NCBI GenBank assembly: GCA_044342325.1
Contig: JBIIPZ010000016.1
Location: forward strand, 1-64,000
Direction of reading: 5' to 3'
Source: Terrimicrobiaceae bacterium
GTDB lineage: Bacteria > Verrucomicrobiota > Verrucomicrobiia > Chthoniobacterales > Terrimicrobiaceae
DNA: 64,000 nt
The notes under the pieces are model-generated. The model was not told the origin of the DNA. It ran no database searches and saw only the letters and a program-made list of their open reading frames with translations. How positions within the stretch are numbered: position 1 is the stretch's first letter; each line of letters begins with the position of its first letter. The position numbers and the translations under genes are program-made. Of the stretch, positions 48,082 to 64,000 are shown piece after piece.

Positions 48082-49134
48082 TCAGTTCGCGAGTGTCGCT
48101 CTGATGACTGTGCCATCCTGCAACTCGCCTTGGTTGCTGGTCACGATTTCCTCATCTGGCGACAAATCTTGGGTTGTTCCATTCACCGACCAGCGCACAG
48201 CAGCGGTGGTGCCGTTGTCTATCTGGATGACAATGGACTTCCTGCGGACTACGCCGTTTTCATTTTTGAAAAGGAATGGCATGCCCCCGTCTCTAACGAT
48301 GGCACTGCTGGGCACAAGGAGAGCGGGCTGTGGCTGGCTCATGGTGAGTTTCATTTTGCCATACATGCCGGGCAGGAGACCTGCGGCCTGACCGGCGGGC
48401 AGTCCCTCTGGAAAATACGGCAGTGTGCGGCTTTTGAGATCGCTTCGACCGTTCGACTCGGCCTGAACCTGAAATTTCGCATACTCGTCCGCGGTTCCGT
48501 TGAAGACGTCCAACTCAACGCTCAGAGTGCGGTCTCCCGACTTGAGGCTTGGGGCGATGCGCGTCAGGCGACTTCGAAAAATTTTCCCGGGCAGGGCATC
48601 CATACTTACATCAGCGATGGTGCTGTTCTTGGACAAATAAGCCACATAGGCCTCAGGAACAGCCATGGAGATCGTCACGATGTCTGTTCGATCCACTGTG
48701 AGCAGCGAATCCACGCCTGGAACGATAGCAGCACTCGGCACAAAAAGACCTGGATCGGCAGACCGCTCTGAAACGACTCCATCAAAGGGTGCATTGATCG
48801 TTGCGAGAATTCCTGACGCATCGCCGGTGTCCAACTGGACCAACACCTCGCCAGCAGTGACCTTGTCGCCGATGGCTTTCTCGACGGATTTGATGGTTCC
48901 AGCCACCCTAGGCAAAAGGCCCACTTGATAGTAGGCGGAGACCTCGGCGGGCTGCTCCACACTCACGGTTTGATTCGAAGCGGCTTGAGGTTTTCCTGTC
49001 AAAACACGGATTGCCACTTTGGAGGTGGAATTGTCGGTGGCAGTCACATTGCCGAGGACATTTTCCATGGAGAAAAGTCCGAGTGTCATCAATGCGGGGA
49101 GTAGGCGGGTATTAGCTATGGTTGTTGATTTCAT
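48082..49134 (-). CDS. RND efflux periplasmic adaptor (MFP) lacking the alpha-helical hairpin
   Basis: Lipoyl half 1 PRVAGTIKSVEKAIGDKVTAGEVLVQLD joined by about 8 aa to half 2 TINAPFDGVV; LLPGMYG; LLVPSSAI. Confidence 0.88.
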   Translation of the reverse strand: MKSTTIANTRLLPALMTLGLFSMENVLGNVTATDNSTSKVAIRVLTGKPQAASNQTVSVEQPAEVSAYYQVGLLPRVAGTIKSVEKAIGDKVTAGEVLVQLDTGDASGILATINAPFDGVVSERSADPGLFVPSAAIVPGVDSLLTVDRTDIVTISMAVPEAYVAYLSKNSTIADVSMDALPGKIFRSRLTRIAPSLKSGDRTLSVELDVFNGTADEYAKFQVQAESNGRSDLKSRTLPYFPEGLPAGQAAGLLPGMYGKMKLTMSQPQPALLVPSSAIVRDGGMPFLFKNENGVVRRKSIVIQIDNGTTAAVRWSVNGTTQDLSPDEEIVTSNQGELQDGTVIRATLAN

Positions 49135-49158
49135 AAATTGCGGGCGTTTTTTCACATC

Positions 49159-52100
49159 TCAGGCCTTGTCCAAATCCGGAGGCTCTGCAGGCGTGTGGCG
49201 AACGAGGAGAGCGTAGAGGACTGGCACAAGAAAGAGTGTGAGGAATGTGGAACTTATAAGTCCTCCGACAATGGCACGCGCCAACGGCGTGGCAGCTTCC
49301 GCGCCCCGACTCAGACCCATGGCCATAGGCGTCATTGCGAGCAGGGTGGCCAGGAATGTCATAAGGATGGGGCGGAAGCGCGTGGCGGCGGCCTCTCTCA
49401 TGGCCTCCCCGGCTCCAAGCCCGGATTCCCTGCGGCGGCGGTTCGCGAAATCCACAAGGAGCACGCCGTTATTCACCGCGATGCCGATGAGAAATGTTGC
49501 CCCGATGAGAGACTGCACATTGAGCGTTGTGCGCGTCAGGAAGAGCATCCAAAGCACTCCGATAAAGCCCAACGGAACGCTGAACATGATGACTCCTGGA
49601 GCAATCCAAGAGCGGAAAAGCGTAACCTGGAGCAGATAGACCTGCACCACGGCCAGCAGGATGCCAAAGCCCAACTGACGGAATGAATCGTTCATGCGCC
49701 CATACTCGCCCTTGAGATTGATTTGCAGCCCTTCGGGCAATTGGACTCCAGCGATGGCTTTTTGAACTTCCCCTGCGATGGAGGCGAGGTCGCGGCCCTC
49801 GGTGTTTACAAAGACATTGGCGACTCGTTTCAGACCGACATGGTTGATTTCGACCTCGCCATTGGTGCGCCGTGGTGTGACGAGAGTGCCCAGATTGATC
49901 GAGGTCTGTCGTCCCTTTGCTGATACAGGCATTGTTAAAATATCCTCCAATCGGCGATCCACATCCTCTGGGAATTGGACGCCGACGAAATATTGGTTTC
50001 CAGACTGTGAATCGATCCAGAAGTTCCTGTCCACCGAAACGCTGGAATTCAGGGCCACCACCACCTGAAGCACCACATCCTCCATCGCCAGTCCCTGCTG
50101 GGCGGCCTTGACGCGATCCACATCCAGCACGAGATACGGTGCATCGTCGCGTTGTTGGATGCGCACATCAGCTGTTCCTGGAATCGGGGCGACGAGGGCG
50201 CGAATCTGGCGCGCAGCGGCGAGGAGTTGCTGAGTTGTGCCGCCTTGAATCTCGATATCAATCGGCGAGGAACTGCCTTGATTCAGTGCGGTGGAAACCA
50301 TGCCGCCTGTGTCGAACTCAATCCTCAAATCCGCAAAAGCCGGTTCCTCCTGAAACGCCTTTCGGAGAAGAATAGCATATTCCTGGGCACTCTTGGTGCG
50401 CGAGGGAGTCAACTGCACGCGGATGATGGCATCCTGCTGGCCAGAGTTGGTTGTGTAGGCTGCCGACCAATCGGGATTCAGGCCCATCTCGGAGACGATC
50501 ATTTCCCTCTCGGATGCAGGGATGTTTTTTCGCAAAAATTCCTCCACCGTTTTGACCCGTTCCTCTGCGGCATTCAAGCGGAGGTTTGAGGGCGCGCGCA
50601 GGCGGAGGGTGATCTGACCGGCATCGACCTGCGGAAAAAACTCGCGTCCGATTTGAGGCAGGAGCAGGAGCGACCCGGCGAAGAGGAGTGCCATGGCGAC
50701 GATAAGTTTTGCCTTGTTTCCCAAACACCAATCCAGCGCCCGCAGGTAGTGCGCACCAAGACGGTCGATGCGAGACTGAAACCAGGCCGAAAATCTCGAA
50801 AAAATGGAAGCGCGACCTCCCTTGGAACGGTGTCCCTCAGGCAAAAATTTCGCACACATCATTGGCACAAAAGTCCGGGAGAGGAGAAATGAGGTCAGCA
50901 TGGCAAAGCCGAGTGCCAAGGTGAGAGGGCGAAAGAGAAAGCCACTGATGCCTGCCATAAAAGCCAACGGCGCGAGCACGAGCACCGTTGTGCAGGTGGC
51001 GACAAGCACGGGAATGAGGACCTCGCCGCACCCGTCGATGGCGGCCCGGAGGCGCGATTTGCCCATGGCATGGTTTCGATGATTGTTCTCCAACTCCACG
51101 ATCGCGTCGTCCACCAATGGCCCTATGGCCAAAGCAAGTCCGCTGAGGGTCATCAGATTCAGCGTGTTTCCTGTTGCAAAGAGTCCCAAGACCGCACCGC
51201 ACAAGGAAAGAGGAATGGATAAAGTGGCGATGACTGTCATACGCCAATCGCCAAGGAAAAGGAGAATCATGAGACAAACCAGCGCTATGCCGATGACTCC
51301 CTCAAGGGTGAGCGCACCGAGAGCCTTTCGCACCGCCACGGTCTGATCCATCACCAGGCGGAGCACTGTGCCCTTCGGCAGGCTTTGCTCCATGGAGGGA
51401 ATCAGTTTTTTGATATCTTCCACGACTCCCAGGCTGCTGGCCCCGCGCTGACGATAAATCGGAACAAACACTTCGTTTGCGTCATCGATACGAACGCGGG
51501 ATGTTTGGATCGTGGCGGCATCTTCCGCATTGCCGATGTCGCGGAGAAAAATCGTTTGAGCCAGGCCAAAAGTAATAGGCAGGGAGTTGAGTTCCTCCAC
51601 GCGGTTCACCATCGCGTTATTATCCAAAAGCATCTGATTCGGCCCGAAGTAGGCTGTCCCGGGCGAAACCATGAGGTTCCCCTTTTTGAGAGCGCCTACG
51701 ACATCCATCGGCACGAGATTTCTCGCCTCCATGCGTTTGGGATCGAGATAGATCATAACCGTGCGGTCGCGTCCGCCAACTACCACGGGAGCGATGCAGC
51801 CATTCACCGCGCCGAGCATGTTTCGGACTTCGATACGGGCGATGTCCTTTTGCCGCGCATCATCGAGGAACGGGTTGGTAACGGTTAAAATCCCGACAGG
51901 CAGCGTTCCTGTGGCATCGAATGGCAAGGCCACGGGCGGCAGAGTGTTGGGTGGCAGATTCGGCAGAGCACCCAGCGCGAGGGAGTTGACCAGTGTGAGT
52001 GCCTCGTTGGGATCGATATCGTCGCGGAAATAAACCTTCACCACGCTCACGCCCGGCACCGAGCGGGACTCCACCGAGCGGGCACCGGGAGCCTGGCTCA

Positions 52101-52311
52101 CCCAGCGTTCCATGCGATTGGTGATCGTCTTCTCGATAGCCGAAGCCGACATGCCGGGGTAGTAGGTCAGCACCTGAACCGCCGGAGCCTTGAACACAGG
52201 CAGGATATCCACCGGAATTTTTACTGCTGCAAGCACGCCCAGAATCAGGATTCCCAGCACTAAGGCCAGAACCATGTAGGGATTGCGCAGGGATGCCTTA
52301 ATGAGCCACAT
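49159..52311 (-). CDS. RND efflux permease (AcrB/CzcA superfamily)
   Basis: 1050 aa; IPVDILP, LAIGPLVDDAIVELEN, GIAVNNGVLLV, RFRPILMT, PLARAIVGGL. Confidence 0.95.
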   Translation of the reverse strand: MWLIKASLRNPYMVLALVLGILILGVLAAVKIPVDILPVFKAPAVQVLTYYPGMSASAIEKTITNRMERWVSQAPGARSVESRSVPGVSVVKVYFRDDIDPNEALTLVNSLALGALPNLPPNTLPPVALPFDATGTLPVGILTVTNPFLDDARQKDIARIEVRNMLGAVNGCIAPVVVGGRDRTVMIYLDPKRMEARNLVPMDVVGALKKGNLMVSPGTAYFGPNQMLLDNNAMVNRVEELNSLPITFGLAQTIFLRDIGNAEDAATIQTSRVRIDDANEVFVPIYRQRGASSLGVVEDIKKLIPSMEQSLPKGTVLRLVMDQTVAVRKALGALTLEGVIGIALVCLMILLFLGDWRMTVIATLSIPLSLCGAVLGLFATGNTLNLMTLSGLALAIGPLVDDAIVELENNHRNHAMGKSRLRAAIDGCGEVLIPVLVATCTTVLVLAPLAFMAGISGFLFRPLTLALGFAMLTSFLLSRTFVPMMCAKFLPEGHRSKGGRASIFSRFSAWFQSRIDRLGAHYLRALDWCLGNKAKLIVAMALLFAGSLLLLPQIGREFFPQVDAGQITLRLRAPSNLRLNAAEERVKTVEEFLRKNIPASEREMIVSEMGLNPDWSAAYTTNSGQQDAIIRVQLTPSRTKSAQEYAILLRKAFQEEPAFADLRIEFDTGGMVSTALNQGSSSPIDIEIQGGTTQQLLAAARQIRALVAPIPGTADVRIQQRDDAPYLVLDVDRVKAAQQGLAMEDVVLQVVVALNSSVSVDRNFWIDSQSGNQYFVGVQFPEDVDRRLEDILTMPVSAKGRQTSINLGTLVTPRRTNGEVEINHVGLKRVANVFVNTEGRDLASIAGEVQKAIAGVQLPEGLQINLKGEYGRMNDSFRQLGFGILLAVVQVYLLQVTLFRSWIAPGVIMFSVPLGFIGVLWMLFLTRTTLNVQSLIGATFLIGIAVNNGVLLVDFANRRRRESGLGAGEAMREAAATRFRPILMTFLATLLAMTPMAMGLSRGAEAATPLARAIVGGLISSTFLTLFLVPVLYALLVRHTPAEPPDLDKA

Positions 52312-52447
52312 GAGAGATCGGGTTTCTAAACAAAATAAAACTCAAGAGCTACAATCAAAACCAGCGCTGTTTTTCAATATTCCGAACTCGACGCAAAAAG
52401 CCCCATCTCTATAAAGAATCCTCTCCGCTTTTGCGGCAGCCTGTTTC

Positions 52448-53197
52448 ATGAAATCCAAGATGCACCTTCACAAATCAACCAACGGATTCATCCGTTCGCA
52501 TCTGGTTGGCCTCCTCGCAGGCATTGGACTCGCCTCCATCGCGATTTTCGGGAGGAACACCGTGGAGTCGGCCATGTCGTTCCTGAAGGAAATGCGCCAG
52601 GACGGCTATGCGACGACCGCCTCGGCAAGGGTGAGCGTTTCTGAAATCACCTTCGATACTTCCACCATGCCATTGCCGCCGAAATTCTGGCAGGAATCAG
52701 AGCCCTCTATCGGCGCTCCCCAGCTTTTTGAAGAGTCAACCACTCAACCGCCGCTGATCGTAACCTCTCTCCAGCAAAAATCGCTGCGAAATCCAGAAGT
52801 TGCAGTGGAGGAGCATCCGCTGCAAATAAACAAAACATCAGAACTCGAACCACACCCCTCGCCGACAGCTACACCGGTTCCCAAACCGGCATTCGACGCT
52901 AGCGCCCTCAAGAAGGCGCTTCACGAGAATCTTTCCTCCGTCTTCACCGGCGACCTCCCTTACATCCTTCTCAAATCAGGCGACCGCCTTTACGCGGGCT
53001 CCAAGCTCACCGAGGGCGTCACGCTCGAGGCCATCAGCCCCACAGCCATTCTCTGCACCACACCTGTGGGCATTTTAAAAATCGACTCGCAGCCGGATTC
53101 GGATTCGCTTGAGACCGCCACCGAAAATGAGAAATCCCCTCTCCCGCTGGATGTCCCAAAGAGTCCGGATGGTGCATCCGCTTCTCAGCCTCTGTAG
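52448..53197 (+). CDS. Membrane-anchored protein with an SctD/YscD-like C-terminal domain
   Basis: TM segment LVGLLAGIGLASIAIFG, Pro/Glu/Thr-rich linker, then LSSVFTGDLPYILLKSGDRLYAGSKLTEGVTLEAISPTAI. Confidence 0.6.
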   Translation: MKSKMHLHKSTNGFIRSHLVGLLAGIGLASIAIFGRNTVESAMSFLKEMRQDGYATTASARVSVSEITFDTSTMPLPPKFWQESEPSIGAPQLFEESTTQPPLIVTSLQQKSLRNPEVAVEEHPLQINKTSELEPHPSPTATPVPKPAFDASALKKALHENLSSVFTGDLPYILLKSGDRLYAGSKLTEGVTLEAISPTAILCTTPVGILKIDSQPDSDSLETATENEKSPLPLDVPKSPDGASASQPL

Positions 53198-53233
53198 CCG
53201 GGAATAATTCCTGCACAGCCTGTTCAAAAAACC

Positions 53234-55390
53234 TTGAGGAAATTCCTGAACAAACTCATCCCTCGGTCTTTTGCAGCCTGGTCACTCACCGCCATTGCCG
53301 CAGGCATTCTCTGCGGAGCCGTCTTTGGTCCTCGCTGCGCGGTGCTGAATCCACTGGGAGAAATTTTTGTTCGGGCCTACGCCCTCGTTTTGCTGCCCTA
53401 CCTGATTTTTGAGATCATCGGCATCTTCGGGGGCTTGAGGCGCGAGTCGCTTGTCGCGCTTGTGAGACATGGCGGCCTGACGCTCATAGGCATGCTTCTG
53501 CTTGGCGGTGCGGCGGTCGCGCTGCTTCCTCTCATGCTGCCACAATTGCTTTCCTCGCCGCTGTTCGACCCGGACATCCTCGAGGCGAGGCCCTCGGAAT
53601 CTCTCATCGAAGTCTTTCTGCCCTCGAATATCTTTGCCGCGATGGCCAAGGGAAATGTGCCTCCTGTGATGTTTTTCAGCATCGTGATCGGCATTATTTT
53701 GCAGAAAATGAAAAACAGGGAGGAGATCCTCAAGCTCGTCGAACCCCTGCGCAGCCTCTTTACGGAGATTTTCACTTTCGTCGCCAAAAAAGTCGCACCC
53801 TTCGGCATCTTTGCCTTCACAGCCAATGCGTTCGGTAACGCGCAGGGCAGCGATTTTGAGAGGTTGCTCGGTCTTTTAGCCATGCTCGTCGTGGGCTTCA
53901 TCGTTCTAGGTTTCATTATTCTGCCAGGCATCGTCTCAACCCTGACCCCCTATCGGCTGCCTCAAATGTGGAGCGTGCTACGCGATCCTTTGATCCTGGT
54001 CATCAGCACAGGAAATATCCTCATGGCCATGCCGCTCGTTATCGAGGGCCTGCGGCGGGTTTTGGTAGACGAGGCAAAAGACGAAGACCGTGAGGGAAGC
54101 GACTTTGCGGTCGTGGAAGCCCTTGTGCCTATCTGCTTCACCATGCTTGGGATCGGGCGGAATCTTCTCATGGTCATTTTTCCCTTTCTGGCGTGGTTTC
54201 ATGACACCCCTCTCTCCACCGGCGAGATCATGAGACACATCCCTTCCATTTTCGCTTCGGCCATGGGTGGTGCCCAGGCGGCTTTGCTTATGGAGCTGCC
54301 GCGGCTCGGACTCCCGGTCAATTTGCTTTCCATCTACCTAATCAATTCGCAATGGATTCTCCGGATATGCGAACCGCTCTCGCTCATTGGCACAATGACA
54401 GTGGCTTTCGTCTTGTTCGCGACCATGAATCGCAGGCTCGTGTTTCGGCCAGGCCGGGCCGTCCTTGTCTGCGTTGCTGCGGTATCCATCTCCATGCTCC
54501 TTGGCACTGCATGCCATCGCATTCTTGCCTCACAGCTCAAAGGCTTCGCTCACTCGCGGGAAATCGTCCTGTCCCGCCAGTCGCTACTAGACCTTCCAAA
54601 GCCAATCATTCTATCGAAGGAAAATCTGCCCGCACCCGCTCCAGTCAGTCTGGATGCCATAAAACAACGCGGCGTGCTCCGCGTGGGAGTGAAGTCCGAC
54701 TCCGTGCCTTGGGTTTACCGAAACCAAGCGGGCGATCTCGTCGGCTATGATGTAGATCTGCTCGCATCCCTGGCGGACGCCCTAAAAGTCCGGTTGGATT
54801 TGCTCGAAGGCAGCCCCTCGGAGCTCAAGCAGTGGCTCCTCCAAGGCCGAATCGACTGCGCCGCTGGTGGATTGCATGGCACTGGTCTGGCCACAATCGG
54901 AGACTTCTTTTATCTGCGCTATGAAAAAGCAACCCTCGCTGCTTTGGTTTCTGACAAGGGTTTGCGAAAACTGCAGGACGCAATCGGATCCCAAGACTCA
55001 AAGACCCTCCGCTTTGCAAGCCAAGGCCGACAGGAAATCTCCTCTGCTCTTCATCGAAGCGTGGAAACAATCCTATCCGAGGGAAAAAACCACAAGCACG
55101 CTGTTTTCCTTCCGATCCAAAGCAAAGGGGAGTTCCTCTCTGGCATGGATGACAAGTTCGACGCTCTTCTCACCAGTGCCGAGGCCGGATCCGCCTACGC
55201 AGTCATCCATCCCGAGACAACCATGCTTCCCATTTTCGGCACCGCCCTGTCCTCTGATATCGTCCTTGTTTTCCCAAAAACCGACGACCCCCTCTTGGAT
55301 TATGTGAGCGACTGGATTGTCGAAAATCAAAACCTTGACCTCCTCGAGCGTCTTAGGAATCACTGGATTTTATTCAAGCCAACAAAGTGA
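53234..55390 (+). CDS. Dicarboxylate/amino acid:cation symporter (DAACS) fused to a family-3 solute-binding domain
   Basis: N-terminal multi-TM region (AGILCGAVFG, FLPSNIFAAM, APFGIFA); C-terminal IKQRGVLRVG, GDLVGYDVDL. Confidence 0.88.
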   Translation: MRKFLNKLIPRSFAAWSLTAIAAGILCGAVFGPRCAVLNPLGEIFVRAYALVLLPYLIFEIIGIFGGLRRESLVALVRHGGLTLIGMLLLGGAAVALLPLMLPQLLSSPLFDPDILEARPSESLIEVFLPSNIFAAMAKGNVPPVMFFSIVIGIILQKMKNREEILKLVEPLRSLFTEIFTFVAKKVAPFGIFAFTANAFGNAQGSDFERLLGLLAMLVVGFIVLGFIILPGIVSTLTPYRLPQMWSVLRDPLILVISTGNILMAMPLVIEGLRRVLVDEAKDEDREGSDFAVVEALVPICFTMLGIGRNLLMVIFPFLAWFHDTPLSTGEIMRHIPSIFASAMGGAQAALLMELPRLGLPVNLLSIYLINSQWILRICEPLSLIGTMTVAFVLFATMNRRLVFRPGRAVLVCVAAVSISMLLGTACHRILASQLKGFAHSREIVLSRQSLLDLPKPIILSKENLPAPAPVSLDAIKQRGVLRVGVKSDSVPWVYRNQAGDLVGYDVDLLASLADALKVRLDLLEGSPSELKQWLLQGRIDCAAGGLHGTGLATIGDFFYLRYEKATLAALVSDKGLRKLQDAIGSQDSKTLRFASQGRQEISSALHRSVETILSEGKNHKHAVFLPIQSKGEFLSGMDDKFDALLTSAEAGSAYAVIHPETTMLPIFGTALSSDIVLVFPKTDDPLLDYVSDWIVENQNLDLLERLRNHWILFKPTK

Positions 55391-55455
55391 GAACGCCGAG
55401 CCCATTTTGCCTTGCAAACAGAGCAGAAGAGCAGAGCCTCCCCTCCCACTCCAAC

Positions 55456-55959
55456 ATGATGATCAAACCATTCGCAACCCTCACCGTTTTCCCACTTCTC
55501 CTCGCCACCTTGCAGGCGCAAACGCCAAAAGAAAACCAAGCCGCCAGCACAGTCACGAAAGCCACCAACGCCGCCGAAGCCGTCTTGAAAAAGCTCCCCT
55601 CCATCCCGGGCGCGGCCGATGCCAAGGTCATCAACATCCACATCGGCGACAACTACACCTTTGGATTCGACGAGGGAGTCGATGCCGAGGAGTGGGGCAT
55701 GACCGACAACCAAAATGAAAGCGGCCAAGCCGCAGCAGCAACCGGACAACCCGCCGCCGCCGCCACACCGAATGAAAAACCACCAGCCTATCGCAAGCTC
55801 GACTTCCGCAAGGGCGATGTGGTGCTCATCGCCACCGAGCAACCGGTGGACTCTCCCAAGCAGGTTGAATCCCCAACCGCCACAATAACTGCCCCTGAGA
55901 CTGGAGCTGCCCCGACTTCCACTCCCACCGCGCAACCAGTCCCCATTGCCACACCCTGA
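55456..55959 (+). CDS. Exported hypothetical protein with Pro/Thr-rich tail
   Basis: Signal-like MMIKPFATLTVFPLLLATLQA; tightly spaced with the next gene. Confidence 0.65.
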   Translation: MMIKPFATLTVFPLLLATLQAQTPKENQAASTVTKATNAAEAVLKKLPSIPGAADAKVINIHIGDNYTFGFDEGVDAEEWGMTDNQNESGQAAAATGQPAAAATPNEKPPAYRKLDFRKGDVVLIATEQPVDSPKQVESPTATITAPETGAAPTSTPTAQPVPIATP

Positions 55960-55975: not shown

Positions 55976-56434
55976 ATGAAACATTTGATTCGTTGCATTC
56001 TTGCAAGCACTCTACTCCTCTCATTTCAAGCCTGCGCGTCGCAGAGCAAAGTAAAAATCAAGGGCTATTCTGCGACGCCGATCGCCAAGCACGGCCAAGG
56101 CGATGCCAGCACAGCGGAATTCACGCGTGTTAAAACGATAAGCCTCGGTGAGTGGCTTAAAGTTCAGAAATTTGCCGCACAAAACGGCTATGATCTCCGC
56201 GAGCCTGAAGCACTCCGTATTTCTGGCAACGAAACCATATACCAAGTTACTTGGTGGGATGCCGTTAAATGGTGCAACGCCAAAAGCTCCATGCAGGGCC
56301 TGACGCCTGTCTATTATTATCGCGGCTCCGTCTTCAAGAAAGGATCCGGAAAACCAGAGATAGACCATCGTTCAAATGGCTATAAATGGATAACTTATCC
56401 AAATATGACGATTGCTAAAATCAACCTCTACTGA
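55976..56434 (+). CDS. Exported (possibly lipo-) protein with a truncated FGE-sulfatase/SUMF1-like domain
   Basis: Signal peptide ending FQAC; QVTWWDAVKWCNAKS, GLTPVYY, SNGY, but no RLPTEAEWE. Confidence 0.7.
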   Translation: MKHLIRCILASTLLLSFQACASQSKVKIKGYSATPIAKHGQGDASTAEFTRVKTISLGEWLKVQKFAAQNGYDLREPEALRISGNETIYQVTWWDAVKWCNAKSSMQGLTPVYYYRGSVFKKGSGKPEIDHRSNGYKWITYPNMTIAKINLY

Positions 56435-56476: not shown

Positions 56477-59400
56477 CTAAGCAAAAACGGCAGTTTTGAT
56501 TGTATTCTGAAAAGTTAGCTTTTCGGAACCATTGATGATTGCAACCAGTTCATCGGATTTATCAAAAGCTCCATTTTTATTGGAGTCAAAGTAAAGCCCA
56601 TTTCCTGATACGCCTTTTACACCCGAGGATTTTAAGAAATAATTCTTAGCTTTTCCAGACAACTGAAGATTGTCCTCGCCAACGCTGAAATCCGTAATAA
56701 GCGCATAATCCTCGAGGCCGGCTTTTTTGCGATTTCCATCACTATAAAGTGATCCACCGGAACCGAGCACAAATCGATCTGCTCCACTTCCACCTGTCAG
56801 GATATCGATCTCGCCTTTTCCACGACCGCTTGCCGTGGAGCAACCAGTGAGTGTGTCTGTGCCCTCGCCTCCTGAAATGAAGTCGGAGCCGAGATCGCCC
56901 ACGAGAGCATTGGCGCCGGAATTGCCATAGATGGCATTGGCGCCGGAATTGCCATTCGCATTAATGTTTGCACTACCCATCAGCCTGAGTTCACGAAGAC
57001 CCTCAGGCATGCGATCGACGGTGCGGGATGTTTGCAGCACTGCGGGAACTGCACCAGGCGATCCTTCCACAACAATCTCTTCGATTCCAAAAGGAAGAGA
57101 GGAAAGAGCCACTGTGCTGTAAATGGTGTCGAAGCCGCCATCTCCATCCTCAAGAATCAAGACATCGGCGCTGGAAATGCGATAACTATCATTGCCAGCA
57201 CCTCCTCGAAGCGTGTCAGTCGATGATTCCGATACAAGCAGGTCATTTCCCAATCCGCCATCCAGGAGATTTGATCCAGATGATCCATAGAGGGAATCGT
57301 TGCCGAGATCGCCATAAAGCGTATCATTTCCTACGCCTCCGATGATTGAATCAGCCCCTGCGGCACCCTGGAGCTGGTCATCACCAAGCTCTCCAATGAT
57401 CGCATTGGAGAACGAATCACCGATCAGGATGTCATTGTAATCCGAACCCGCTAGGTTCTCGATGCCAATGAGCGTGTCACCGTCAGCATGTCCTCCAGAG
57501 AGGGAACCGGTAGTCAAGTTCACATATACCCCAGCGAAAGAGTGGTCATAGGTGACTAAGTCAGATCCGGATCCGCCTTCGATGAGGTCTGCGCCACGAC
57601 CGCCTTCCAGCGAATCATCGCCTTCCGCACCATACAAGAAGTCATTCCCACGATAGCCGAAGATGTAGTTTGCTGTCTTGCTACCAGTCAGGGTATCTCC
57701 TAACTCCGAACCGACGAGATTGTCGATACTGATCAGTGTATCCCCTGTGGCGTCACCACCGGCAGCTGTTCGTGTCGATAAATTGACCGCAACCGCCTCG
57801 GTGGATTCCATGTAGATGGCAAAATCACGACCGCCCTGACCATTTATTGTATCCGCACCTGCCCCACCCTCGAAGATATCGTCGCCCGCTCCGCCGTAGA
57901 GTGAGTCATTGCCGCCGAGTCCTTTGAAGACGAGACCTTGAGACCCTGCAACGATGGTGTCATCGTGCTGGGTTCCTTCAAATTGCTCGATATCAGTGAA
58001 GACATCGCCAGCTGCGGCGCTACCACTGTGGGTTCCAGTTGCAAAGTTCAGAAAAACACCTGACTCCGCCAATCGATAGGAAACAAGATCCAAACCGTCA
58101 TTTCCATCAACCCTGCTTATGCCTGCGCCGCTGATCTCAATAGTGTCATCTCCATCTTGTAGATTCCAAATCCATTCACCTGTTGCCGAGCTGGATACAA
58201 TATTAACACTTTTTTCAGGAGAATTGAAAGTTCCACTCTCCTCCACTGGAATGTAAACTTCCCTCTCATCAACTTGAGTCTTCACAACACCTGCAGGGGC
58301 CGTGGAACCCGCAAGGGCCATCGCTTGCGGGCCGGCAAGTTTATCAAGAATGGTGGAAAATTGGCCATTTTCATATTTGAGAAGATCCTCTGCCAAAAAT
58401 ACATATCTTCTCCTCATGGAGGCCCACCCCCAGTCGATACGCCCTTCAACAAAGCCTTCGAACGAAAGTCTACCGCTTGGATTCAAAAGCGCGAATGGAT
58501 CAAAAGTATCTCCAAAAACAAGAGCCAGCGATTCTCCGATACGCAATTTCCCGTCACTATTGGGATCGTTCAAACCGAAGGTCGCATTTCCATAAAGACC
58601 ACCGCCAGCAAAGATGGATGCAGATCCCACATTCAAGCCCGCGGAAAGCTCCGCACCGACTGTAACCCCCGCCTTGGTGAGATTCGAGTCGAGGTAGAGT
58701 CCGTCGATGGCCTTTACGGTGCTCCAGCCGATATCCTCACCATTGTAGTAGCCCTCGAGCGTTGACAAGAGACCATAAGTATCATATCCCCCTGCCAATT
58801 GGGCGAATGCATTAACAGACCCCGCCAATCTGCCTGCAATCGGCCCGTAGATCGGAAAATTTACTCCAAAATCGGCCGACAAATCCATTTTGGGAGTTTC
58901 GAAGGTGAAAACATCGCTGGGCTGGCCAAGAAGCAGATTGCCAACAAAAGTGAGAGGGTCATTGATGACCGGAAAGGAAAATTTGCCCGAGGAGAAATCT
59001 GCGGAGGCCTTGGCAAAGTCTTCGAATTTATCGGATTCCTTCCACCCTTGTTTTTTAAGGGCATCTTTAAAATCTTTTTCCGTTTTAACAACAGATACTT
59101 TTGTGGGATCAAAACTTTCTTCCCAGGCCTTCTGTGCATCTTGCAAAGATATTGAACCAAGTGTGACGATGCCGGATGAGGAAAAGGTCATCGCGTCTAC
59201 AAATTTATTGAACTGAGCAAGCCACTCAATAAATTGTCGTGTCGATTGATTTAGGGCACCCGTCGATTCGGCCAGTTGCAAAAGTGTGTAGGGCGCACCA
59301 AGGTTTTTTAAATCGGTGATTTCCACTGTGAGCGCATCCGTGAAACTCTTCGAAAAGGAGACGATGCCCTTGAGTTTCTGAAAATTTTCATAAATGAGGC

Positions 59401-60391
59401 TGTTTGCTCCAAACAAGTCATTTATATCAATGCTTATATCATCGAATACGATAGTTGGCAGCTCACCTCCAGCCAATGACCAGTCCAACTTGAAATCCGT
59501 CGTAATAGCTGGAAGATACTTGATTGGCGTATACTTAAGTCCCAAATCCAAATCGGCTACAATATCAAATCGGTCTTGGTAATCTAAATCCAAGGAATCC
59601 AATTCATCCAATCGCAACAGTTTGTCCGCATCCTTGTCTTGAAATGCACCCACATAAGAAATTTCAAAATCATTTCCCGTTGTGGTGTTGTCTTTGGCCT
59701 CAAAATTGAGGATCGGCATTTCAACTTTACCGCTTGTGCCGTTGAGATTTGCAATCAGTCCGATGGATGCCTCCATCTTATTTTTATTTTGTGCATCCTT
59801 GCCGGTATCAAAGTAAAAACCAGCTTCATCCACGCCAATACTGGCTTTCAGCCCCGCCTCGGCACCCACAGAGAAATTGCCATCCGATTGGAATTGTAAG
59901 AGCTCCGGCATTCCGAATTCCTTATCAATCGGAGCATCGAACTCCCCGGATACTGCAATATCGAAATCCAAACCCCAATTACTACCAGCGCTGGTTGTTC
60001 CGTTTTTAATACTAAGATTCAAGCCGAGATACATGTCGGAACCGAATACTTTAACAGGCTCGTCCGTTCTGTTTTTATAGACAAATGCATCGCGAGTCCC
60101 GGTATTCCCATCGTTGGTAATTCCCAGTTCGTTCAACAGAGCAGTGCCAAATTCCTGTGCGGTAAAAGTGCCATCGGAGATTTTAGCGGCTTGTTTTTCG
60201 AAAACCTTTAGCGAGGCATCCCGAATCGGTGCCAGAATATCAATCTTATCCGTGATTTCATTAATCGATTCGCCTATTCCCGGAATTGGCTTGGCAAGAA
60301 GTTTTTTTGTGACTTCGAGACCTGCACTGTTAAAGAAATTTGACCAGGCATTTTTGAAGTAGTCAGTAATCAATTGATTGGCGTCAGGCAT
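56477..60391 (-). CDS. Large RTX (hemolysin-type Ca-binding repeat) protein, 1304 aa
   Basis: Many GGxGxDxL nonapeptides in the C-terminal half; three repeated units (V.vNL.t...GDtl..IEnl.G); no Sec signal. Confidence 0.92.
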   Translation of the reverse strand: MPDANQLITDYFKNAWSNFFNSAGLEVTKKLLAKPIPGIGESINEITDKIDILAPIRDASLKVFEKQAAKISDGTFTAQEFGTALLNELGITNDGNTGTRDAFVYKNRTDEPVKVFGSDMYLGLNLSIKNGTTSAGSNWGLDFDIAVSGEFDAPIDKEFGMPELLQFQSDGNFSVGAEAGLKASIGVDEAGFYFDTGKDAQNKNKMEASIGLIANLNGTSGKVEMPILNFEAKDNTTTGNDFEISYVGAFQDKDADKLLRLDELDSLDLDYQDRFDIVADLDLGLKYTPIKYLPAITTDFKLDWSLAGGELPTIVFDDISIDINDLFGANSLIYENFQKLKGIVSFSKSFTDALTVEITDLKNLGAPYTLLQLAESTGALNQSTRQFIEWLAQFNKFVDAMTFSSSGIVTLGSISLQDAQKAWEESFDPTKVSVVKTEKDFKDALKKQGWKESDKFEDFAKASADFSSGKFSFPVINDPLTFVGNLLLGQPSDVFTFETPKMDLSADFGVNFPIYGPIAGRLAGSVNAFAQLAGGYDTYGLLSTLEGYYNGEDIGWSTVKAIDGLYLDSNLTKAGVTVGAELSAGLNVGSASIFAGGGLYGNATFGLNDPNSDGKLRIGESLALVFGDTFDPFALLNPSGRLSFEGFVEGRIDWGWASMRRRYVFLAEDLLKYENGQFSTILDKLAGPQAMALAGSTAPAGVVKTQVDEREVYIPVEESGTFNSPEKSVNIVSSSATGEWIWNLQDGDDTIEISGAGISRVDGNDGLDLVSYRLAESGVFLNFATGTHSGSAAAGDVFTDIEQFEGTQHDDTIVAGSQGLVFKGLGGNDSLYGGAGDDIFEGGAGADTINGQGGRDFAIYMESTEAVAVNLSTRTAAGGDATGDTLISIDNLVGSELGDTLTGSKTANYIFGYRGNDFLYGAEGDDSLEGGRGADLIEGGSGSDLVTYDHSFAGVYVNLTTGSLSGGHADGDTLIGIENLAGSDYNDILIGDSFSNAIIGELGDDQLQGAAGADSIIGGVGNDTLYGDLGNDSLYGSSGSNLLDGGLGNDLLVSESSTDTLRGGAGNDSYRISSADVLILEDGDGGFDTIYSTVALSSLPFGIEEIVVEGSPGAVPAVLQTSRTVDRMPEGLRELRLMGSANINANGNSGANAIYGNSGANALVGDLGSDFISGGEGTDTLTGCSTASGRGKGEIDILTGGSGADRFVLGSGGSLYSDGNRKKAGLEDYALITDFSVGEDNLQLSGKAKNYFLKSSGVKGVSGNGLYFDSNKNGAFDKSDELVAIINGSEKLTFQNTIKTAVFA

Positions 60392-60399
60392 TGTTAGGT

Positions 60400-61164
60400 T
60401 TATTGATGCGCCGACTGCAAAGAAGCAGGCGGGGCGGATGATGTGTGGTTTTGGGAAAATTTGAGTTGGCAGGCTTCCGCGATATTTTTAGAAATCGAAA
60501 ATGCCGTAAAAAATATGCCGTAAATGAGTTCTGGCGTTGCTTCGACTGCATCGGGGGATGGAAACTTCAGCTCCGTGCGTTCAATTTGATAGTCCAACTT
60601 CACGGCTCCGGCCTCTGGTTTGGAAAAACGCGGCATATCAAGGTGGACAGTGAGCGGTTCAGCAGAGAATGCGGGACCGCTTACGGAGGATCTTGATGAG
60701 AAAAGCAGGTTCAGTGCCAGAAGAGTCCTGATTTGCTGAGCGCAGTGAAAGTGCGGCGAAAGAAGTTTTTCCAACTGTTCGATCAACTCCTTGATATTGG
60801 GAGGAATGTCCTGAACCCGCTCAAGAATCTCTTTTTTCTTTTGCTCCTCGCTTTGAGCCGAAGACAAAACATGGGCCATTTCCATGAACTGTCGGATTTG
60901 CTCCAAAAAAAGCGCTTGGTGCGCGGACAAATCGCGCAAGGCAGAAGCCAAAATCCAATCTTTTGCTGCCGGCGTGGTCTCCGAAAACGAGGTCGGTCGT
61001 TGAGTGGCGCGAGGTGCTGGCGGCAACGCCGAGAGGTATTGTTTCCACTCCATCTCGCCCAAGCTAAGAAGACCTGCATGTGCAGCAAACACTCCGTCCC
61101 GTAATGCAACGACGCGCTTCACATGCGCATCAACAATCGATTGAAGTTTGATTGGGTCACCCAT
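60400..61164 (-). CDS. Hypothetical protein, 254 aa
   Basis: ATG ORF filling the gap between neighbours; stop lies 8 bp before the RTX start. Confidence 0.75.
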   Translation of the reverse strand: MGDPIKLQSIVDAHVKRVVALRDGVFAAHAGLLSLGEMEWKQYLSALPPAPRATQRPTSFSETTPAAKDWILASALRDLSAHQALFLEQIRQFMEMAHVLSSAQSEEQKKKEILERVQDIPPNIKELIEQLEKLLSPHFHCAQQIRTLLALNLLFSSRSSVSGPAFSAEPLTVHLDMPRFSKPEAGAVKLDYQIERTELKFPSPDAVEATPELIYGIFFTAFSISKNIAEACQLKFSQNHTSSAPPASLQSAHQ

Positions 61165-61242
61165 ATTTAAATCTGCGAAAGAAAGACCATTCTTTAGATT
61201 CTTTGTTCAATACCGGCAAAACATTTTTGAAAATACAACGCT

Positions 61243-61569
61243 CTAAGTAGCGGTCGTTATGAAACCGACATCGGCGATCAAATGAAAACCCGCCGTGAGA
61301 AGAGATTTTCTTTGCGAGGGGTAACAAAGAATTTCTACGGCGAATTTTTTTTCAACAACAGGACTTAAGACCAACCGCGCACGCTCCAACCAAGTGATCG
61401 CGGGCAGAAATTCTGGAGCAAGCCGAAATCGAAAACGGGATACCCCCTCCCCCACGCAGAGCATGACCTGATCGGAGAGCACTTCGGCCTCGCGTGCCGA
61501 AAGCGTGGGTGAAATCACAAATTCTTTCACGCCGGGTGACGCATAGGGATTCACTATAATATTTGACAT
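61243..61569 (-). CDS. Hypothetical protein, possibly a degenerate STAS fold
   Basis: 108 aa; alternating beta/alpha pattern ending RKSLLTAGFHLI. Confidence 0.6.
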   Translation of the reverse strand: MSNIIVNPYASPGVKEFVISPTLSAREAEVLSDQVMLCVGEGVSRFRFRLAPEFLPAITWLERARLVLSPVVEKKFAVEILCYPSQRKSLLTAGFHLIADVGFITTAT

Positions 61570-61624
61570 AGGAATGTTAGTGGAGTTTCGAAAAATTTGA
61601 GTCGGGTCCAGAAAAAATCAAAAG

Positions 61625-62152
61625 TCAACTCCTTTGCCAAATTTTTTGCTCTGAATACCTCGAAGGACGGCGGGTGAGTCCGAAAAGCCAGGCCATATCC
61701 ATATCCCGGTATTCGTGGAGGTCGCCAACAAGGCGCGTATAGAAGTCGCGCAACTTGGGGAGTGGCAACTCACGTTCGTTCACCTGCCCGGCCTTTGAAA
61801 CGCAGCCTCCGATGACCTCGATGAGTTCGCTACGGTGAACCGCATATCGAAGGAAGGCCCCTAGGGAGAGCAAGGGACCAGCGAGCGACTCATTCGATCC
61901 ACTGCGCTGGATATTACAAATAAGAAGCGCCGAGGGATCCGGTTGCCGAAGATGGAGCTCCAGATTCCGCCAAACAAGTCGCACACCCAGAAATGCCGAT
62001 TTGGAGCGGTGCGGCGAGAGCGGAATGGCAGAAATTTTGTAACCATCACCAACGAGTTGACGGGCAAATGGGGATTCCAAGGGATCGGCCAAAATGGCAA
62101 ATTCCTGGAATCGCGCATAAAGCGCGGTCGCCTCGGCTGCAGAGTCCTCCAT
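61625..62152 (-). CDS. LcrR/PcrR-like type III secretion accessory protein
   Basis: FLGVRL...L.LR...LLICNIQR...LAGPL and KLRDFYTRLVG resemble my recollection of Yersinia LcrR; starts 5 bp after the sctU stop. Confidence 0.6.
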   Translation of the reverse strand: MEDSAAEATALYARFQEFAILADPLESPFARQLVGDGYKISAIPLSPHRSKSAFLGVRLVWRNLELHLRQPDPSALLICNIQRSGSNESLAGPLLSLGAFLRYAVHRSELIEVIGGCVSKAGQVNERELPLPKLRDFYTRLVGDLHEYRDMDMAWLFGLTRRPSRYSEQKIWQRS

Positions 62153-62157
62153 CGAGG

Positions 62158-63213
62158 TTACTGGCGTTTGGGTAAGGTTTGAACCCATTTGAGAATCTCC
62201 GCGATGGGAGCCAGCATTTCGTTCGGTATGAAGTCGTCGAGCTTCACATTGTCATAAAGGTGCCGGGCGATACGGGCATTTTGCACAACTGGGACTTGAT
62301 TGTCCTTGGCCACATCGATCATGCGGAAAGCAAGACTGTCGACGCCCTTCACTGTTACTTTCGGCAGCTTGGTGATGCCTGGCTCATAGTAGAGCCCCAC
62401 AGCGTAGTGGGTCGGATTGGTGACGAGCACAGTGGCGCTTTTTGTTTTGCCGACGGTGTCCTCGTTGATCATTTCGCGGTGCAGGCTCTTTCGCTGGCCC
62501 TTGATTTCCGGACTGCCCTCCTGCTGCTTATATTCCCGCTTCACCTCGTCCTTGGTCATCTTCATTTCCCGTGTGAATAAAAATTTCTGTAAAAAATAAT
62601 CCGCTGCGGCCACGACGACATAGACTCCCATGAAGGGGAGAATGAACCACAGGAACATTTTCTCGAACACATTAGGCACGGCTTGGATATCCGTGAGCGG
62701 CAGCTGCATCAACGGGTCGATAGAATCTTTGATAATGAAATAAAGAAGCAGGCTGAGAACGGAAACTTTGAGAAGCGATTTCACAAACTCCATGAGATTT
62801 TTGAGGGAAAAAATCTTCTTCACGCCCTCAATAGGGTTGAGCTTGTTCAGGTCCGGCTTCATGGCTTCAAAGGCAAACATGAAGCCCACTTGAAGGTAGC
62901 TTCCGGCGAGCACGCCCACGATGCACGCGAGAGCAAGAGGGAGGACCACGCTCAATAGCGTCTGCAGCGATTTGGCGGCCATCATGCTGAACGCTGTCGC
63001 AGGATCGTCGTTGGCGACTGCAAGACCTGCCGTGAAAAGCTCCTGAAAACTTTTCACAGTGGTATGGAAAAGGCCCGCCGTGGCAGCCAGAACAAACACA
63101 GTGACAATCGTGGTGGTGACATCCGTGCTCTTCGCGACCTGTCCCTTCTCACGCGCATCGCGCAGTTTTTTGTCTGTTGGCTGCTCGGTTTTTTCGCCGC
63201 TGGATTCGCTCAT
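62158..63213 (-). CDS. sctU: Type III secretion export apparatus switch protein SctU (YscU/HrcU family)
   Basis: GEKTEQPTDKKLRDAREKGQVAKS, KMTKDEVKREYKQQEGSPEIK, autocleavage site NPTH. Confidence 0.93.
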   Translation of the reverse strand: MSESSGEKTEQPTDKKLRDAREKGQVAKSTDVTTTIVTVFVLAATAGLFHTTVKSFQELFTAGLAVANDDPATAFSMMAAKSLQTLLSVVLPLALACIVGVLAGSYLQVGFMFAFEAMKPDLNKLNPIEGVKKIFSLKNLMEFVKSLLKVSVLSLLLYFIIKDSIDPLMQLPLTDIQAVPNVFEKMFLWFILPFMGVYVVVAAADYFLQKFLFTREMKMTKDEVKREYKQQEGSPEIKGQRKSLHREMINEDTVGKTKSATVLVTNPTHYAVGLYYEPGITKLPKVTVKGVDSLAFRMIDVAKDNQVPVVQNARIARHLYDNVKLDDFIPNEMLAPIAEILKWVQTLPKRQ

Positions 63214-63992
63214 TTCAAGACAGTCGAGAGAAACTGCAAAAGGGAGTCTTCGGAAAACATGCCCTTGTCCATACCCCACACGATGGTCGTCGTGTAAAAA
63301 ATGAGCAGGAAGAAAGTAAGGGCGCTCTTCACCGGCATGGAAAAGAAGAAAATATTCAGTTGGGGCACGAAGCGGTTCATCAGACCAAGCCCCAAATCTA
63401 CGAGAGTGAAAACGATCAAAAACGGCGCGGCATACAGAACCGTCATGGCAAAATAGGATACCATGATGCCCGAGATCGCCGCCTTAGCCCCGGGGCCAAA
63501 AGAAGGAAGCATTTCATTGATCGGATAAATCTGGAAGGAAGTCAGCACAGCTGAAAGAAACGCAAAAAATCCACCTGTGACGAAAAAAATGGCCGCACTG
63601 AAGCGGATGAGAAGGTTGGCCGTGGGCGATGTCACCGCGCCAAACATCGGGTTGAAAACACTCGCCGCCGTAGCGCCTCGCTGAAGGTCGATGAGTTCGC
63701 CTGCGCTCGAGATGGCCCAAAAAAGAAGGGAGGCAGGAAGGGCAAGGAGCAAGCCCAGCACGATCTCTTTCGTGCAAAGGGCCAGCATAACGAGGGGCGA
63801 CTGGGAAATTTCGAGCACCTGAGGCATGAGCAAGGGCAGCGCAATGCCGGTTGTAACAATCACAAATCCCCTTCGCGCCAGTCCCGTTGGGCCGCCAAAA
63901 AAAGGCGTTATCAGCAGAGCCACCCCAATCCTCGCCGTGGCGAGGAACATGGAGATCATCCCCACCCCAAAAGCCTCGAAACTCGGGATCAT
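63210..63992 (-). CDS. sctT: Type III secretion export apparatus protein SctT (YscT/HrcT family)
   Basis: KEIVLGLLL, AGELIDLQRG, GLMNRFVPQLNIFFFSMPVKS; ATGA overlap with sctU. Confidence 0.93.
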   Translation of the reverse strand: MIPSFEAFGVGMISMFLATARIGVALLITPFFGGPTGLARRGFVIVTTGIALPLLMPQVLEISQSPLVMLALCTKEIVLGLLLALPASLLFWAISSAGELIDLQRGATAASVFNPMFGAVTSPTANLLIRFSAAIFFVTGGFFAFLSAVLTSFQIYPINEMLPSFGPGAKAAISGIMVSYFAMTVLYAAPFLIVFTLVDLGLGLMNRFVPQLNIFFFSMPVKSALTFFLLIFYTTTIVWGMDKGMFSEDSLLQFLSTVLK

Positions 63993-64000
63993 TGCGATAG

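What the first reader, a model, noticed from the sequence alone, without database searches (positions are those of the whole stretch)
48082..64000. Composite secretion locus: injectisome genes, RTX protein, SctD-like fragment, sensor-like transporter and unusual RND pump
Seen: after the AraC gene the housekeeping content stops, and about 16 kb holds only envelope, secretion-related or uncharacterised genes in three units. These are RND-MFP (minus); SctD-like, DAACS-SBP and two exported proteins (plus); and sctT-sctU-lcrR-like-ORF-ORF-RTX (minus). T3SS-like parts occur in both converging units. Inference: one host-interaction island, for contact with algae, protists or cyanobacterial colonies, in which amino-acid sensing, adhesion and injection are linked. 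I do not know this gene combination from described T3SS families; it is the best candidate here for an undescribed system.
Basis: partly seen in the sequence, partly recalled or inferred. Interest (0 to 1): 0.78.

Follow-up and report, generated by a model that had tools for sequence, protein, structure and literature searches.

The report
Injectisome island with co-travelling accessory genes
This is one end of a complete protein-injection (type III secretion) gene island in an uncultured Verrucomicrobium-related bacterium; an efflux pump missing its outer-channel hook, an amino-acid-transporter-like gene and a predicted pore-anchoring protein come and go with it across the genus and likely serve life on a host cell, while the large repeat protein is likely a later passenger.

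Summary
The genes are there as described. The window holds the sctS(end)-sctT-sctU-LcrR-like end of a complete Ysc-like non-flagellar T3SS. The rest lies on contigs C75, C74 and C36, beside a separate flagellar cluster. The left edge (about 48,040) is a real island edge: a T3SS-free congener joins araC directly to chaA.

In the genus, 9 of 41 genomes carry the T3SS, scattered over the rpoB tree (7 changes). The DAACS-SBP fusion and the adaptor occur in exactly those 9, the RND in those plus one, and the SctD-C-terminal-like gene in 7 of them. A flanking control gene does not follow.

The adaptor lacks the alpha-hairpin and has no outer-channel gene. The 'SctD fragment' is an intact TM + GspB/GspC-HR-fold protein.

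Against a composite system: ten T3SS loci from other genera lack these genes, the same pump occurs without nearby T3SS genes in planctomycetes, and the RTX cassette sits here in only 2 of 9.

Verdict: a known machine with an undescribed genus-specific accessory set; the functional link is inferred.

The parts
48040..48081 (.). Left edge of the island (between araC stop and MFP stop)
   Evidence: G030 (98% complete, no sctU) has araC and chaA stops about 40 bp apart; in G000 MFP follows araC and sctW follows chaA on C36
48082..49155 (-). Periplasmic adaptor (MFP) without alpha-hairpin
   Evidence: TIGR01730 over cut-off; about 130-residue hairpin of long homologues absent; model pLDDT 85.8 with 7-residue loop; top fold hits BesA
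49159..52311 (-). AcrB/CusA-superfamily RND transporter, no outer-membrane-factor gene beside it
   Evidence: PF00873 713 bits; TM4 DD and TM11 R/T positions kept, TM10 N in place of K, as in 57-97% identical relatives (residue roles recalled)
52448..53197 (+). Stand-alone SctD-C-terminus paralogue: one TM helix, Pro-rich linker, HR/PilP-fold domain; predicted secretin anchor
   Evidence: PF23893 over cut-off; 33% to own SctD C-terminus; TM 17-35; four best folds GspB, GspC, PulC, PilP, Z 5.7-6.5
53234..55390 (+). DAACS/SDF-fold membrane protein fused to a family-3 amino-acid-type binding domain, with degenerate core motifs
   Evidence: PF00375 + PF00497 over cut-off; PDB hits; motif columns
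55387..55959 (+). Exported small protein of unknown family (likely start 55459), conserved core with acidic motif; island accessory
   Evidence: Orthologues beside T3SS or accessory genes in G009, G012, G015, G020, G025, G031; no Atlas hit
55976..56434 (+). 152-aa ORF, short member of a paralogous lipoprotein-like family; part of the low-GC insertion
   Evidence: Weak TIGR02171 hit; six further hits in genome; GC 0.47; at this place only in G000, G031
56477..60391 (-). RTX-repeat surface protein, 1304 aa, N-terminal 730 aa without known match; later passenger
   Evidence: PF00353 7 stretches; RTX-toxin model 107 of 1000 bits; only repeats match PDB; GC 0.48
60400..61164 (-). 254-aa Verrucomicrobiota-type hypothetical protein that precedes RTX-like genes, also away from T3SS
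   Evidence: Same pairing in G013 and G002; Atlas clusters unnamed
61243..61569 (-). 108-aa conserved last gene of the T3SS operon; family unknown
   Evidence: Follows the LcrR-like gene in G012, G013, G015, G025, G031 and metagenome loci; no Pfam or PDB match
61625..62188 (-). Distant LcrR-like T3SS regulator/chaperone
   Evidence: 5 of 9 homologues hit TIGR02572 at E 2e-4 to 1e-7, all under cut-off; weak SseE hit itself
62158..63213 (-). sctU
   Evidence: TIGR01404 410 bits, cut-off 358
63210..63992 (-). sctT
   Evidence: TIGR01401 180 bits, cut-off 163
63989..64000 (-). 3' end of sctS (continues to the contig end; its start is at the end of C75)
   Evidence: Translations; identified by position and sequence, not HMM-scored

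Best explanation
The stretch is the right arm of a genus-level island that encodes a complete Ysc-like injectisome plus a small accessory set (hairpin-less RND-adaptor pair, DAACS-SBP fusion, stand-alone SctD-C-terminus paralogue, 190-aa exported protein) that is present and absent together with it and likely supports life in contact with a eukaryotic host. Shown: gene content, island edge, co-occurrence, missing hairpin, HR-type fold. Inferred steps follow. (1) The injectisome delivers effectors into an unidentified aquatic eukaryote; it has needle, translocon and gatekeeper genes. (2) The 249-aa protein likely works like GspB, a membrane-anchored HR domain that holds the SctC secretin N0 domain. 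(3) The DAACS-SBP fusion likely captures amino-acid-like solutes at the contact site; its core motifs are degenerate, so uptake versus sensing is open. (4) The RND with its hairpin-less adaptor likely expels small molecules only as far as the periplasm. The 152-aa ORF, RTX gene and 254-aa ORF are a later low-GC insertion; the RTX protein would leave by the type I system on C9, not by the injectisome.
For: Complete T3SS on C14, C75, C74, C36 with SctC, D, J, N, R, T, U, V over non-flagellar cut-offs, and a separate flagellar cluster on C37. G025 carries sctD to sctU as one contiguous cluster. Empty site in G030, and purM/chaA joined to cfa in G023, G035, G062. T3SS in 9 of 41 genus genomes (8 by sctU; G034 by sctC-N DNA), needing 7 changes on the rpoB tree. 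SDF-SBP 9 of 9 and 0 of 32; MFP 9 of 9 and 0 of 32 (G012 as a contig-edge piece); RND 9 of 9 and 1 of 32; SctD paralogue 7 of 9 and 0 of 32. Independent pairs 7/7, 7/7, 6/7, 5/7, none opposite. The control hydrolase just outside the edge is in 4 of 9 and 10 of 32. The accessories stay next to sct genes in different orders. In G012 and G025 the RND is kept although separated from its adaptor and from the T3SS. G020's T3SS (SctU 95-96%), SDF-SBP (91%) and RND (86%) match G012/G025 despite a distant rpoB. Fold of the paralogue. T1SS adaptor over cut-off on C9.
Against: None of ten T3SS loci from other genera of the order shows these accessories in the fetched DNA, so they are not needed for this injectisome lineage. 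The RND-adaptor pair occurs in 29 non-verrucomicrobial loci and in G114 with no sct gene in the DNA held; only 15 of those loci are 12 kb or longer. Distant SDF-SBP fusions (25-28%) occur in 13 other genomes, 11 of them without an sctU match. The SctD paralogue was not found in G009 or G013. Physical linkage alone produces co-loss. G034 was re-scored as T3SS-positive after a targeted search; scored negative, the pair counts fall to 6/7, 5/7 and 4/7. Fold Z-scores are under 8 and Foldseek E is 0.09. All genomes are incomplete assemblies. The join C36-C74-C75-C14 is inferred, not assembled.
Confidence: 0.6

Rival explanations
1. Hitch-hiking cargo: the accessory genes landed in the island once in the genus ancestor, are inherited and deleted with it only because they are close, and have no role in host contact.
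For: Absent from other genera's T3SS loci. The RND-MFP is a free-moving freshwater module about 65-75% identical across phyla. SDF-SBP alleles are exchanged: G034 is 71% to G009 but 45% to G000. Unrelated cargo also sits in the island arms on C74 and C36.
Against: The genes persist intact at 44-73% identity across lineages after repeated rearrangement. A detached RND is kept in G012 and G025. MFP, SDF-SBP and the paralogue were found in 0 of 32 T3SS-negative genomes. The paralogue derives from SctD itself.
Confidence: 0.28
2. One composite machine: the hairpin-less RND-adaptor uses the T3SS secretin as its outer exit, bridged by the GspB-like paralogue, in place of TolC.
For: RND-MFP-paralogue-ORF190 form one co-directional run in G020, and MFP-paralogue-ORF190 in G012, G025 and two metagenome loci. 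No hairpin and no OMF gene. Secretin-binding fold.
Against: The same pump lives without nearby T3SS genes or the paralogue in planctomycete and other loci. In G000 the pump is divergent from the paralogue. In G009 and G013 the pump is present and the paralogue was not found. In an assembled injectisome the needle fills the secretin (established knowledge).
Confidence: 0.08
3. Chance juxtaposition of unrelated envelope genes next to a T3SS.
For: True for the 152-aa ORF, RTX gene and 254-aa ORF.
Against: The co-occurrence and repeated adjacency of the other five genes.
Confidence: 0.04

Closest known systems
Ysc-family T3SS (Yersinia Ysc, Aeromonas Asc)
   Same: Best plasmid matches of SctV, 53%. 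Has YscX, YscY, SycN, TyeA, YscO, YscK, YscE-like, SycD and LcrR-like genes, with sctW-sycN-X-Y-V and sctN-O-P-Q-R-S-T-U order.
   Different: SctW and TyeA fused. Two needle-like genes. No LcrV/LcrG hit among the 33 proteins scanned. LcrR-like gene after sctU. Split over two loci, with DUF2827 genes and the accessory set.
Verrucomicrobium spinosum T3SS and T3SS noted in root-associated Verrucomicrobia
   Same: A non-flagellar T3SS in the same phylum (PMC3459982 passage; PMC3542564 passage; PMC7251102 passage; PMC3681970 abstract start).
   Different: Not compared by sequence, because the primary paper was not held. I found no description of this genus's system or its accessories.
BesA/BesABC of Borrelia burgdorferi
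   Same: Adaptor with no alpha-hairpin; top eight Foldseek rows (PMC3807786 passages).
   Different: besC (OMF) is co-transcribed there. Here no OMF gene lies beside the pair, and the hairpin was lost from a long planctomycete-type adaptor; 17-18% identity.
GspB/OutB and GspC HR domain (T2SS), PilP (T4P)
   Same: TM anchor plus HR-fold domain; best structural matches. GspB binds secretin N0 (PMC9239104 abstract).
   Different: Sequence derives from the SctD C-terminus and it travels with a T3SS. The genome's T2SS-like locus on C12 is separate.
Cation:dicarboxylase symporter family fusions (SDF + SBP_bac_3)
   Same: Same two-domain architecture, e.g. Pseudoalteromonas, 26%.
   Different: A distinct orthologue group (44% or more) confined to T3SS-positive congeners. 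I found no functional study.

Membership tests
Non-flagellar T3SS (injectisome) | Core SctR, T, U, V, N, J scoring as non-flagellar | tested here: met
   All over NCBIfam non-flagellar cut-offs; flagellar paralogues lie separately on C37
Non-flagellar T3SS (injectisome) | Secretin SctC and full-length SctD | tested here: met
   TIGR02516 336 of 238; TIGR02500 110 of 86
Non-flagellar T3SS (injectisome) | SctS, SctQ, SctL, needle, gatekeeper, translocon and chaperone | tested here: met
   SctS split across the C75/C14 gap. SctQ, SctL, SctF and SctB hit their models but under cut-off. HrpJ, TyeA and SseC over Pfam cut-off
Non-flagellar T3SS (injectisome) | Effector delivery into eukaryotic cells | not testable with these tools
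   Needs culture and a host
Ysc family | YscX/YscY/SycN/TyeA/YscO gene set and order | tested here: met
Ysc family | LcrV-type tip and LcrG | tested here: inconclusive
   The ORF before sycD has no Pfam hit; part of the region is lost in an assembly gap
Ysc family | Branches within the Ysc clade in a core-gene tree | not tested
   The tree held only systems of this order; best plasmid hits are Ysc/Asc at 53%
Tripartite RND efflux pump | RND transporter plus adaptor | tested here: met
Tripartite RND efflux pump | Adaptor alpha-hairpin that recruits the OMF | tested here: not met
Tripartite RND efflux pump | Cognate OMF gene in the operon | tested here: not met
   None beside the pair in the window. 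In one search, OMF hits directly downstream occur only in L301 and L302 (long adaptors); five other hits belong to neighbouring RND clusters. Use of an OMF in trans was not excluded
SctD | Cytoplasmic FHA domain and periplasmic BON-like domains (for the 249-aa ORF) | tested here: not met
   Only Y4YQ_C matches; the C74 gene has all domains
GspB/GspC/PilP secretin-binding proteins | TM anchor plus HR-fold domain | tested here: met
   TM 17-35; Z 6.5, rmsd 2.1, 62 aligned to 4wfw; Z 6.3 to 3oss_C; Z under 8, small domain
GspB/GspC/PilP secretin-binding proteins | Binds secretin N0 | not testable with these tools
   Needs a binding assay
DAACS/SLC1 symporter | SDF domain | tested here: met
   PF00375 107 bits; GltTk/GltPh hits
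DAACS/SLC1 symporter | TM7 NMDGT motif and TM8 substrate residues (motif recalled) | tested here: not met
   No such motif in the window protein, its orthologues or the distant fusions shown
RTX pore-forming toxin | Whole-protein match to the RTX toxin model, adjacent acyltransferase and T1SS genes | tested here: not met
   NF033943 107 of 1000; N-terminus has no PDB match; T1SS adaptor lies on C9
LcrR | TIGR02572 over cut-off | tested here: inconclusive
   Homologues 21-32 bits of 139.5; no hit for the window protein

The most novel reading that the evidence does not exclude
A TolC-free efflux route built into an injectisome island: the RND pump has shed its adaptor hairpin and OMF gene, and in this genus is coupled through a SctD-derived, GspB-like bridge to the T3SS secretin, while an SBP-fused transporter scaffold with a degenerate core acts as the host-contact nutrient sensor.
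Probability: 0.08. Interest if true: 0.85.

Novelty: new variant of a known kind. Interest (0 to 1): 0.47.

Why it matters
Freshwater Verrucomicrobia are usually described as free-living polysaccharide degraders; the main text of one genome survey (PMC5615132) has no hit for 'secretion' or 'type III'. About a fifth of the species in this genus carry a complete injectisome island that is repeatedly lost or exchanged, which points to a facultative eukaryote-contact lifestyle. Its accessory set gives testable candidates: a second, stand-alone secretin anchor for a T3SS, and a two-component RND pump whose adaptor cannot dock TolC in the usual way. Hairpin-less adaptors were known to me only from spirochete BesABC, which keeps its OMF.

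Tried and rejected
Complex prediction of the paralogue's HR domain (143-218) with SctC N0-N1 (33-195): no verdict, scores 0.13 and 0.19 against a mark of 0.32; not evidence either way.

RNA run search for 48100-58000: none was listed, so no reads were laid.

Atlas: no usable hit for ORF190; only unnamed clusters for ORF254, with a HEPN-like lead at 0.84 that I did not follow.

ORF108: I suspected a STAS/anti-anti-sigma fold from recall; no Pfam or PDB support.

Ideas rejected:
- sctTU are flagellar: they score over non-flagellar cut-offs and a separate flagellar set exists.
- The 249-aa ORF is a broken sctD: it is intact in 7 genomes, has 57 homologous clusters, and a full sctD is on C74.
- Co-occurrence is only shared ancestry: the T3SS needs 7 changes, with 205 of 500 shuffles as low.
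- G006 has a T3SS: its hit is flagellar FliI.

Rows dropped before counting: G009's paralogue hit (30%, a SctD-length frame), G022's RND (33%), and L301's loop value (an alignment artefact; it is a long adaptor).

No exact contig-end overlap joins C36, C74, C75 and C14. No 16S primer match in the genome.

Literature: searches found no description of this system; Sait et al. 2011 was not held. Earlier-findings look-ups by sequence and words gave nothing relevant.
Full report
Observation. The window is G000:C14:1-64000, from a 2.93-Mb, 78-contig assembly that is 86% complete. sctT and sctU score over the non-flagellar NCBIfam cut-offs, and sctS runs off the contig end. GC is 0.56 for 48,041-55,960, the same as the housekeeping part, 0.48 for 55,961-61,600 and 0.53 for the sct genes. 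Close relatives carry titles such as Verrucomicrobia or Spartobacteria bacterium; the order Chthoniobacterales is my inference.

The rest of the machine. C75 encodes SycD (C-terminal part), two translocators, two DUF2827 proteins, a small ORF and sctC-J-K-L-N-O-P-Q-R, and ends in the first codons of sctS. C74 encodes a full SctD, a YscE-like protein, two needle-like proteins, a YscG-like protein, the rod and the start of SycD. C36 encodes sctW(TyeA fused)-sycN-sctX-sctY-sctV and an SBP. A separate flagellar cluster is on C37. No contig-end overlap joins these pieces, but G025 carries sctD to sctU in the same order on one contig. The best plasmid matches of SctV are Aeromonas Asc and Yersinia Ysc at 53%. 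I did not place it in a tree with named families.

Island edge. G030 is 98% complete and has no sctU match. Its araC and chaA stop codons face each other about 40 bp apart. In G000, araC abuts the adaptor gene and chaA abuts sctW on C36. G062, G023 and G035 likewise join the purM/chaA side to the cfa side with no sct or accessory gene (G004, 64% complete, is uninformative). That the four contigs form one run is inferred.

Co-occurrence in the genus. sctU is over cut-off in 8 of 41 genomes. G034 has sctC-J-K-L-N at 82% nucleotide identity, giving 9. Only five genomes were re-tested this way, chosen because they were doubtful. On an rpoB tree of 38 of the 41 genomes the T3SS needs 7 changes and is not clustered. 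Counts in T3SS-positive and T3SS-negative genomes are: SDF-SBP 9 of 9 and 0 of 32; adaptor 9 of 9 (G012 as a contig-edge piece) and 0 of 32; RND 9 of 9 and 1 of 32 (G006, 71% complete); SctD paralogue 7 of 9 and 0 of 32; RTX N-terminus 3 of 9 and 1 of 32. Independent pairs going the same way are 7, 7, 6, 5 and about 3 of 7 (sign test p 0.016, 0.016, 0.031, 0.063, 0.25). With G034 scored negative they are 6, 6, 5, 4 and about 3. The glycoside hydrolase just outside the edge is the control: 4 of 9 and 10 of 32, p 0.5. ORF190 was seen in seven T3SS genomes but was not searched in the negatives.

Arrangements. The accessories change order but stay beside sct genes. G009 has RND-MFP-sctW. G020 has SDF-sctW and RND-MFP-paralogue-ORF190. 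G012 and G025 have SDF-porin-sctW and MFP-paralogue-ORF190 facing the sctU end, with the RND on another contig. G015 and metagenome locus L232 have the window's layout without the three low-GC ORFs. In G013 no adjacency was shown. G020's SctU (95-96%), SDF-SBP (91%) and RND (86%) resemble G012/G025 although its rpoB is distant, which suggests the block moved as a unit. SDF-SBP alleles are also exchanged separately.

Limits of the linkage. Across 401 genomes of the order, sctU matched in 29. Ten T3SS loci from other genera (G044, G048, G088, G091, G102, G105, G149, G313, G376, G399; some short) show none of the accessories. Adaptor orthologues outside the genus were found only in G114, which gave no T3SS match. 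Distant SDF-SBP fusions occur in 13 other genomes. The paralogue family is narrow: 57 clusters, all 42% or more identical. So this is a genus-specific cargo set, not a general feature of this injectisome lineage.

The pump. The adaptor has a 7-8-residue loop where long planctomycete-type homologues have about 130 residues of hairpin. The model confirms this (pLDDT 85.8) and BesA tops the fold search. Of 37 genome loci, 32 are short, 3 long and 2 undetermined. The 29 short non-verrucomicrobial loci, mostly titled Planctomycetota or Methylococcaceae, have RNDs 64-76% identical where the contig holds them, and no sct match in the DNA held; 15 of them are 12 kb or longer. An OMF gene directly follows the adaptor only in two long-adaptor loci. 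BesA keeps a co-transcribed OMF (PMC3807786, passages). A review names BesA as the aberrant hairpin-less case (PMC8277102, passages from the first 300,000 characters). I infer release into the periplasm; use of an OMF in trans was not excluded.

The SctD paralogue. It has one TM helix, a Pro-rich linker and a C-terminal domain 33% identical to the C-terminus of the genome's own SctD. The four structural matches at Z 5 or more are GspB, GspC-HR, PulC-HR and PilP (Foldseek agrees at weak E). GspB's HR domain binds secretin N0 and anchors it (PMC9239104, abstract and outline), and the SctD C-terminal region contacts the secretin N-terminus (PMC3459982, passage). A second secretin anchor is therefore the likeliest role; it is predicted only.

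The transporter fusion and small ORFs. SDF and SBP_bac_3 are both over cut-off, but the canonical TM7/TM8 motifs (recalled) are missing in all orthologues and distant fusions shown. Uptake versus sensing stays open. ORF187 is LcrR-like through homologues only. ORF108 and ORF190 have no family.

The RTX cassette. ORF152, RTX and ORF254 are low in GC and lie at this place only in G000 and G031. ORF254 precedes RTX-like giants in G013 and in T3SS-negative G002. Only the repeats match solved structures and the toxin model is far under cut-off. A T1SS adaptor lies on C9 near another RTX gene. It reads as a surface protein, inserted later.

Prior knowledge. Non-flagellar T3SSs in Verrucomicrobia are known: PMC3459982 (passage), PMC3542564 (passages), PMC7251102 (passage; its Supplementary Note 2 may describe such clusters and I did not read it) and PMC3681970 (abstract start in a listing). 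Sait et al. 2011 was not held. Searches found no account of this genus's island or accessories; the library lacks most subscription journals.

Verdict. This is a known kind of machine in a little-studied lineage, with a real, undescribed, genus-limited accessory set whose functional tie to injection is likely but not shown. New variant of a known kind; interest 0.47.

Noticed in passing
L269-L298 and window 48082-52311: A two-gene RND + hairpin-less adaptor module with no OMF gene is shared at about 65-75% RND identity among records titled Planctomycetota, Methylococcaceae and Verrucomicrobia; long-hairpin relatives keep an OMF. It deserves study on its own.
   Followed up: partly
G000:C36:45250-50767 (L010); G025:C6 about 251,100-257,500: Very long (over 1800 and 2126 aa) ORFs near the T3SS arms; the G000 one has no Pfam hit and low GC. 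Candidate effectors.
   Followed up: no
G000:C75:2252-5460 (L031) and C9:70013-72606: A DUF2827 gene pair is inserted between the translocon and sctC; a paralogous pair lies in the T1SS/RTX locus on C9. It is absent from G025's cluster.
   Followed up: partly
G000:C74:7746-8291 (L008): Two tandem needle-like (SctF) genes, also in G025.
   Followed up: no
G000:C36:41235-42323 (L010); L113, L115, L126: A PotD-like SBP follows sctV in G000, G012, G020, G025 and G031, and a porin-like gene (OprB-type by my reading) precedes sctW in G012 and G025: further uptake-type accessories.
   Followed up: partly
G025:C6 (L053) and G031:C133 (L057): sctC, sctN and sctT in G025, and sctT and the LcrR-like gene in G031, align in two pieces: frameshifts or assembly errors.
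   Followed up: no
order-wide search: sctU matched in 5 of 5 genomes of family f9 (including two 0.9-Mb genomes) and 12 of 13 of genus g13. A second, distinct T3SS type occurs in g29/g48.
   Followed up: partly
window 53234-55390: SDF-SBP is far more divergent and discordant than its neighbours (69% to G031 where RND is 97%; G034 45%), suggesting allele exchange or diversifying selection.
   Followed up: partly
G000:C74:1562-2632 (L008): A pentameric ligand-gated ion channel homologue (Neur_chan_LBD) lies upstream of sctD.
   Followed up: no
window 39015-41717: A 900-aa Hsp70-like + DUF3731 gene; a canonical-looking dnaK gene lies on C36.
   Followed up: no
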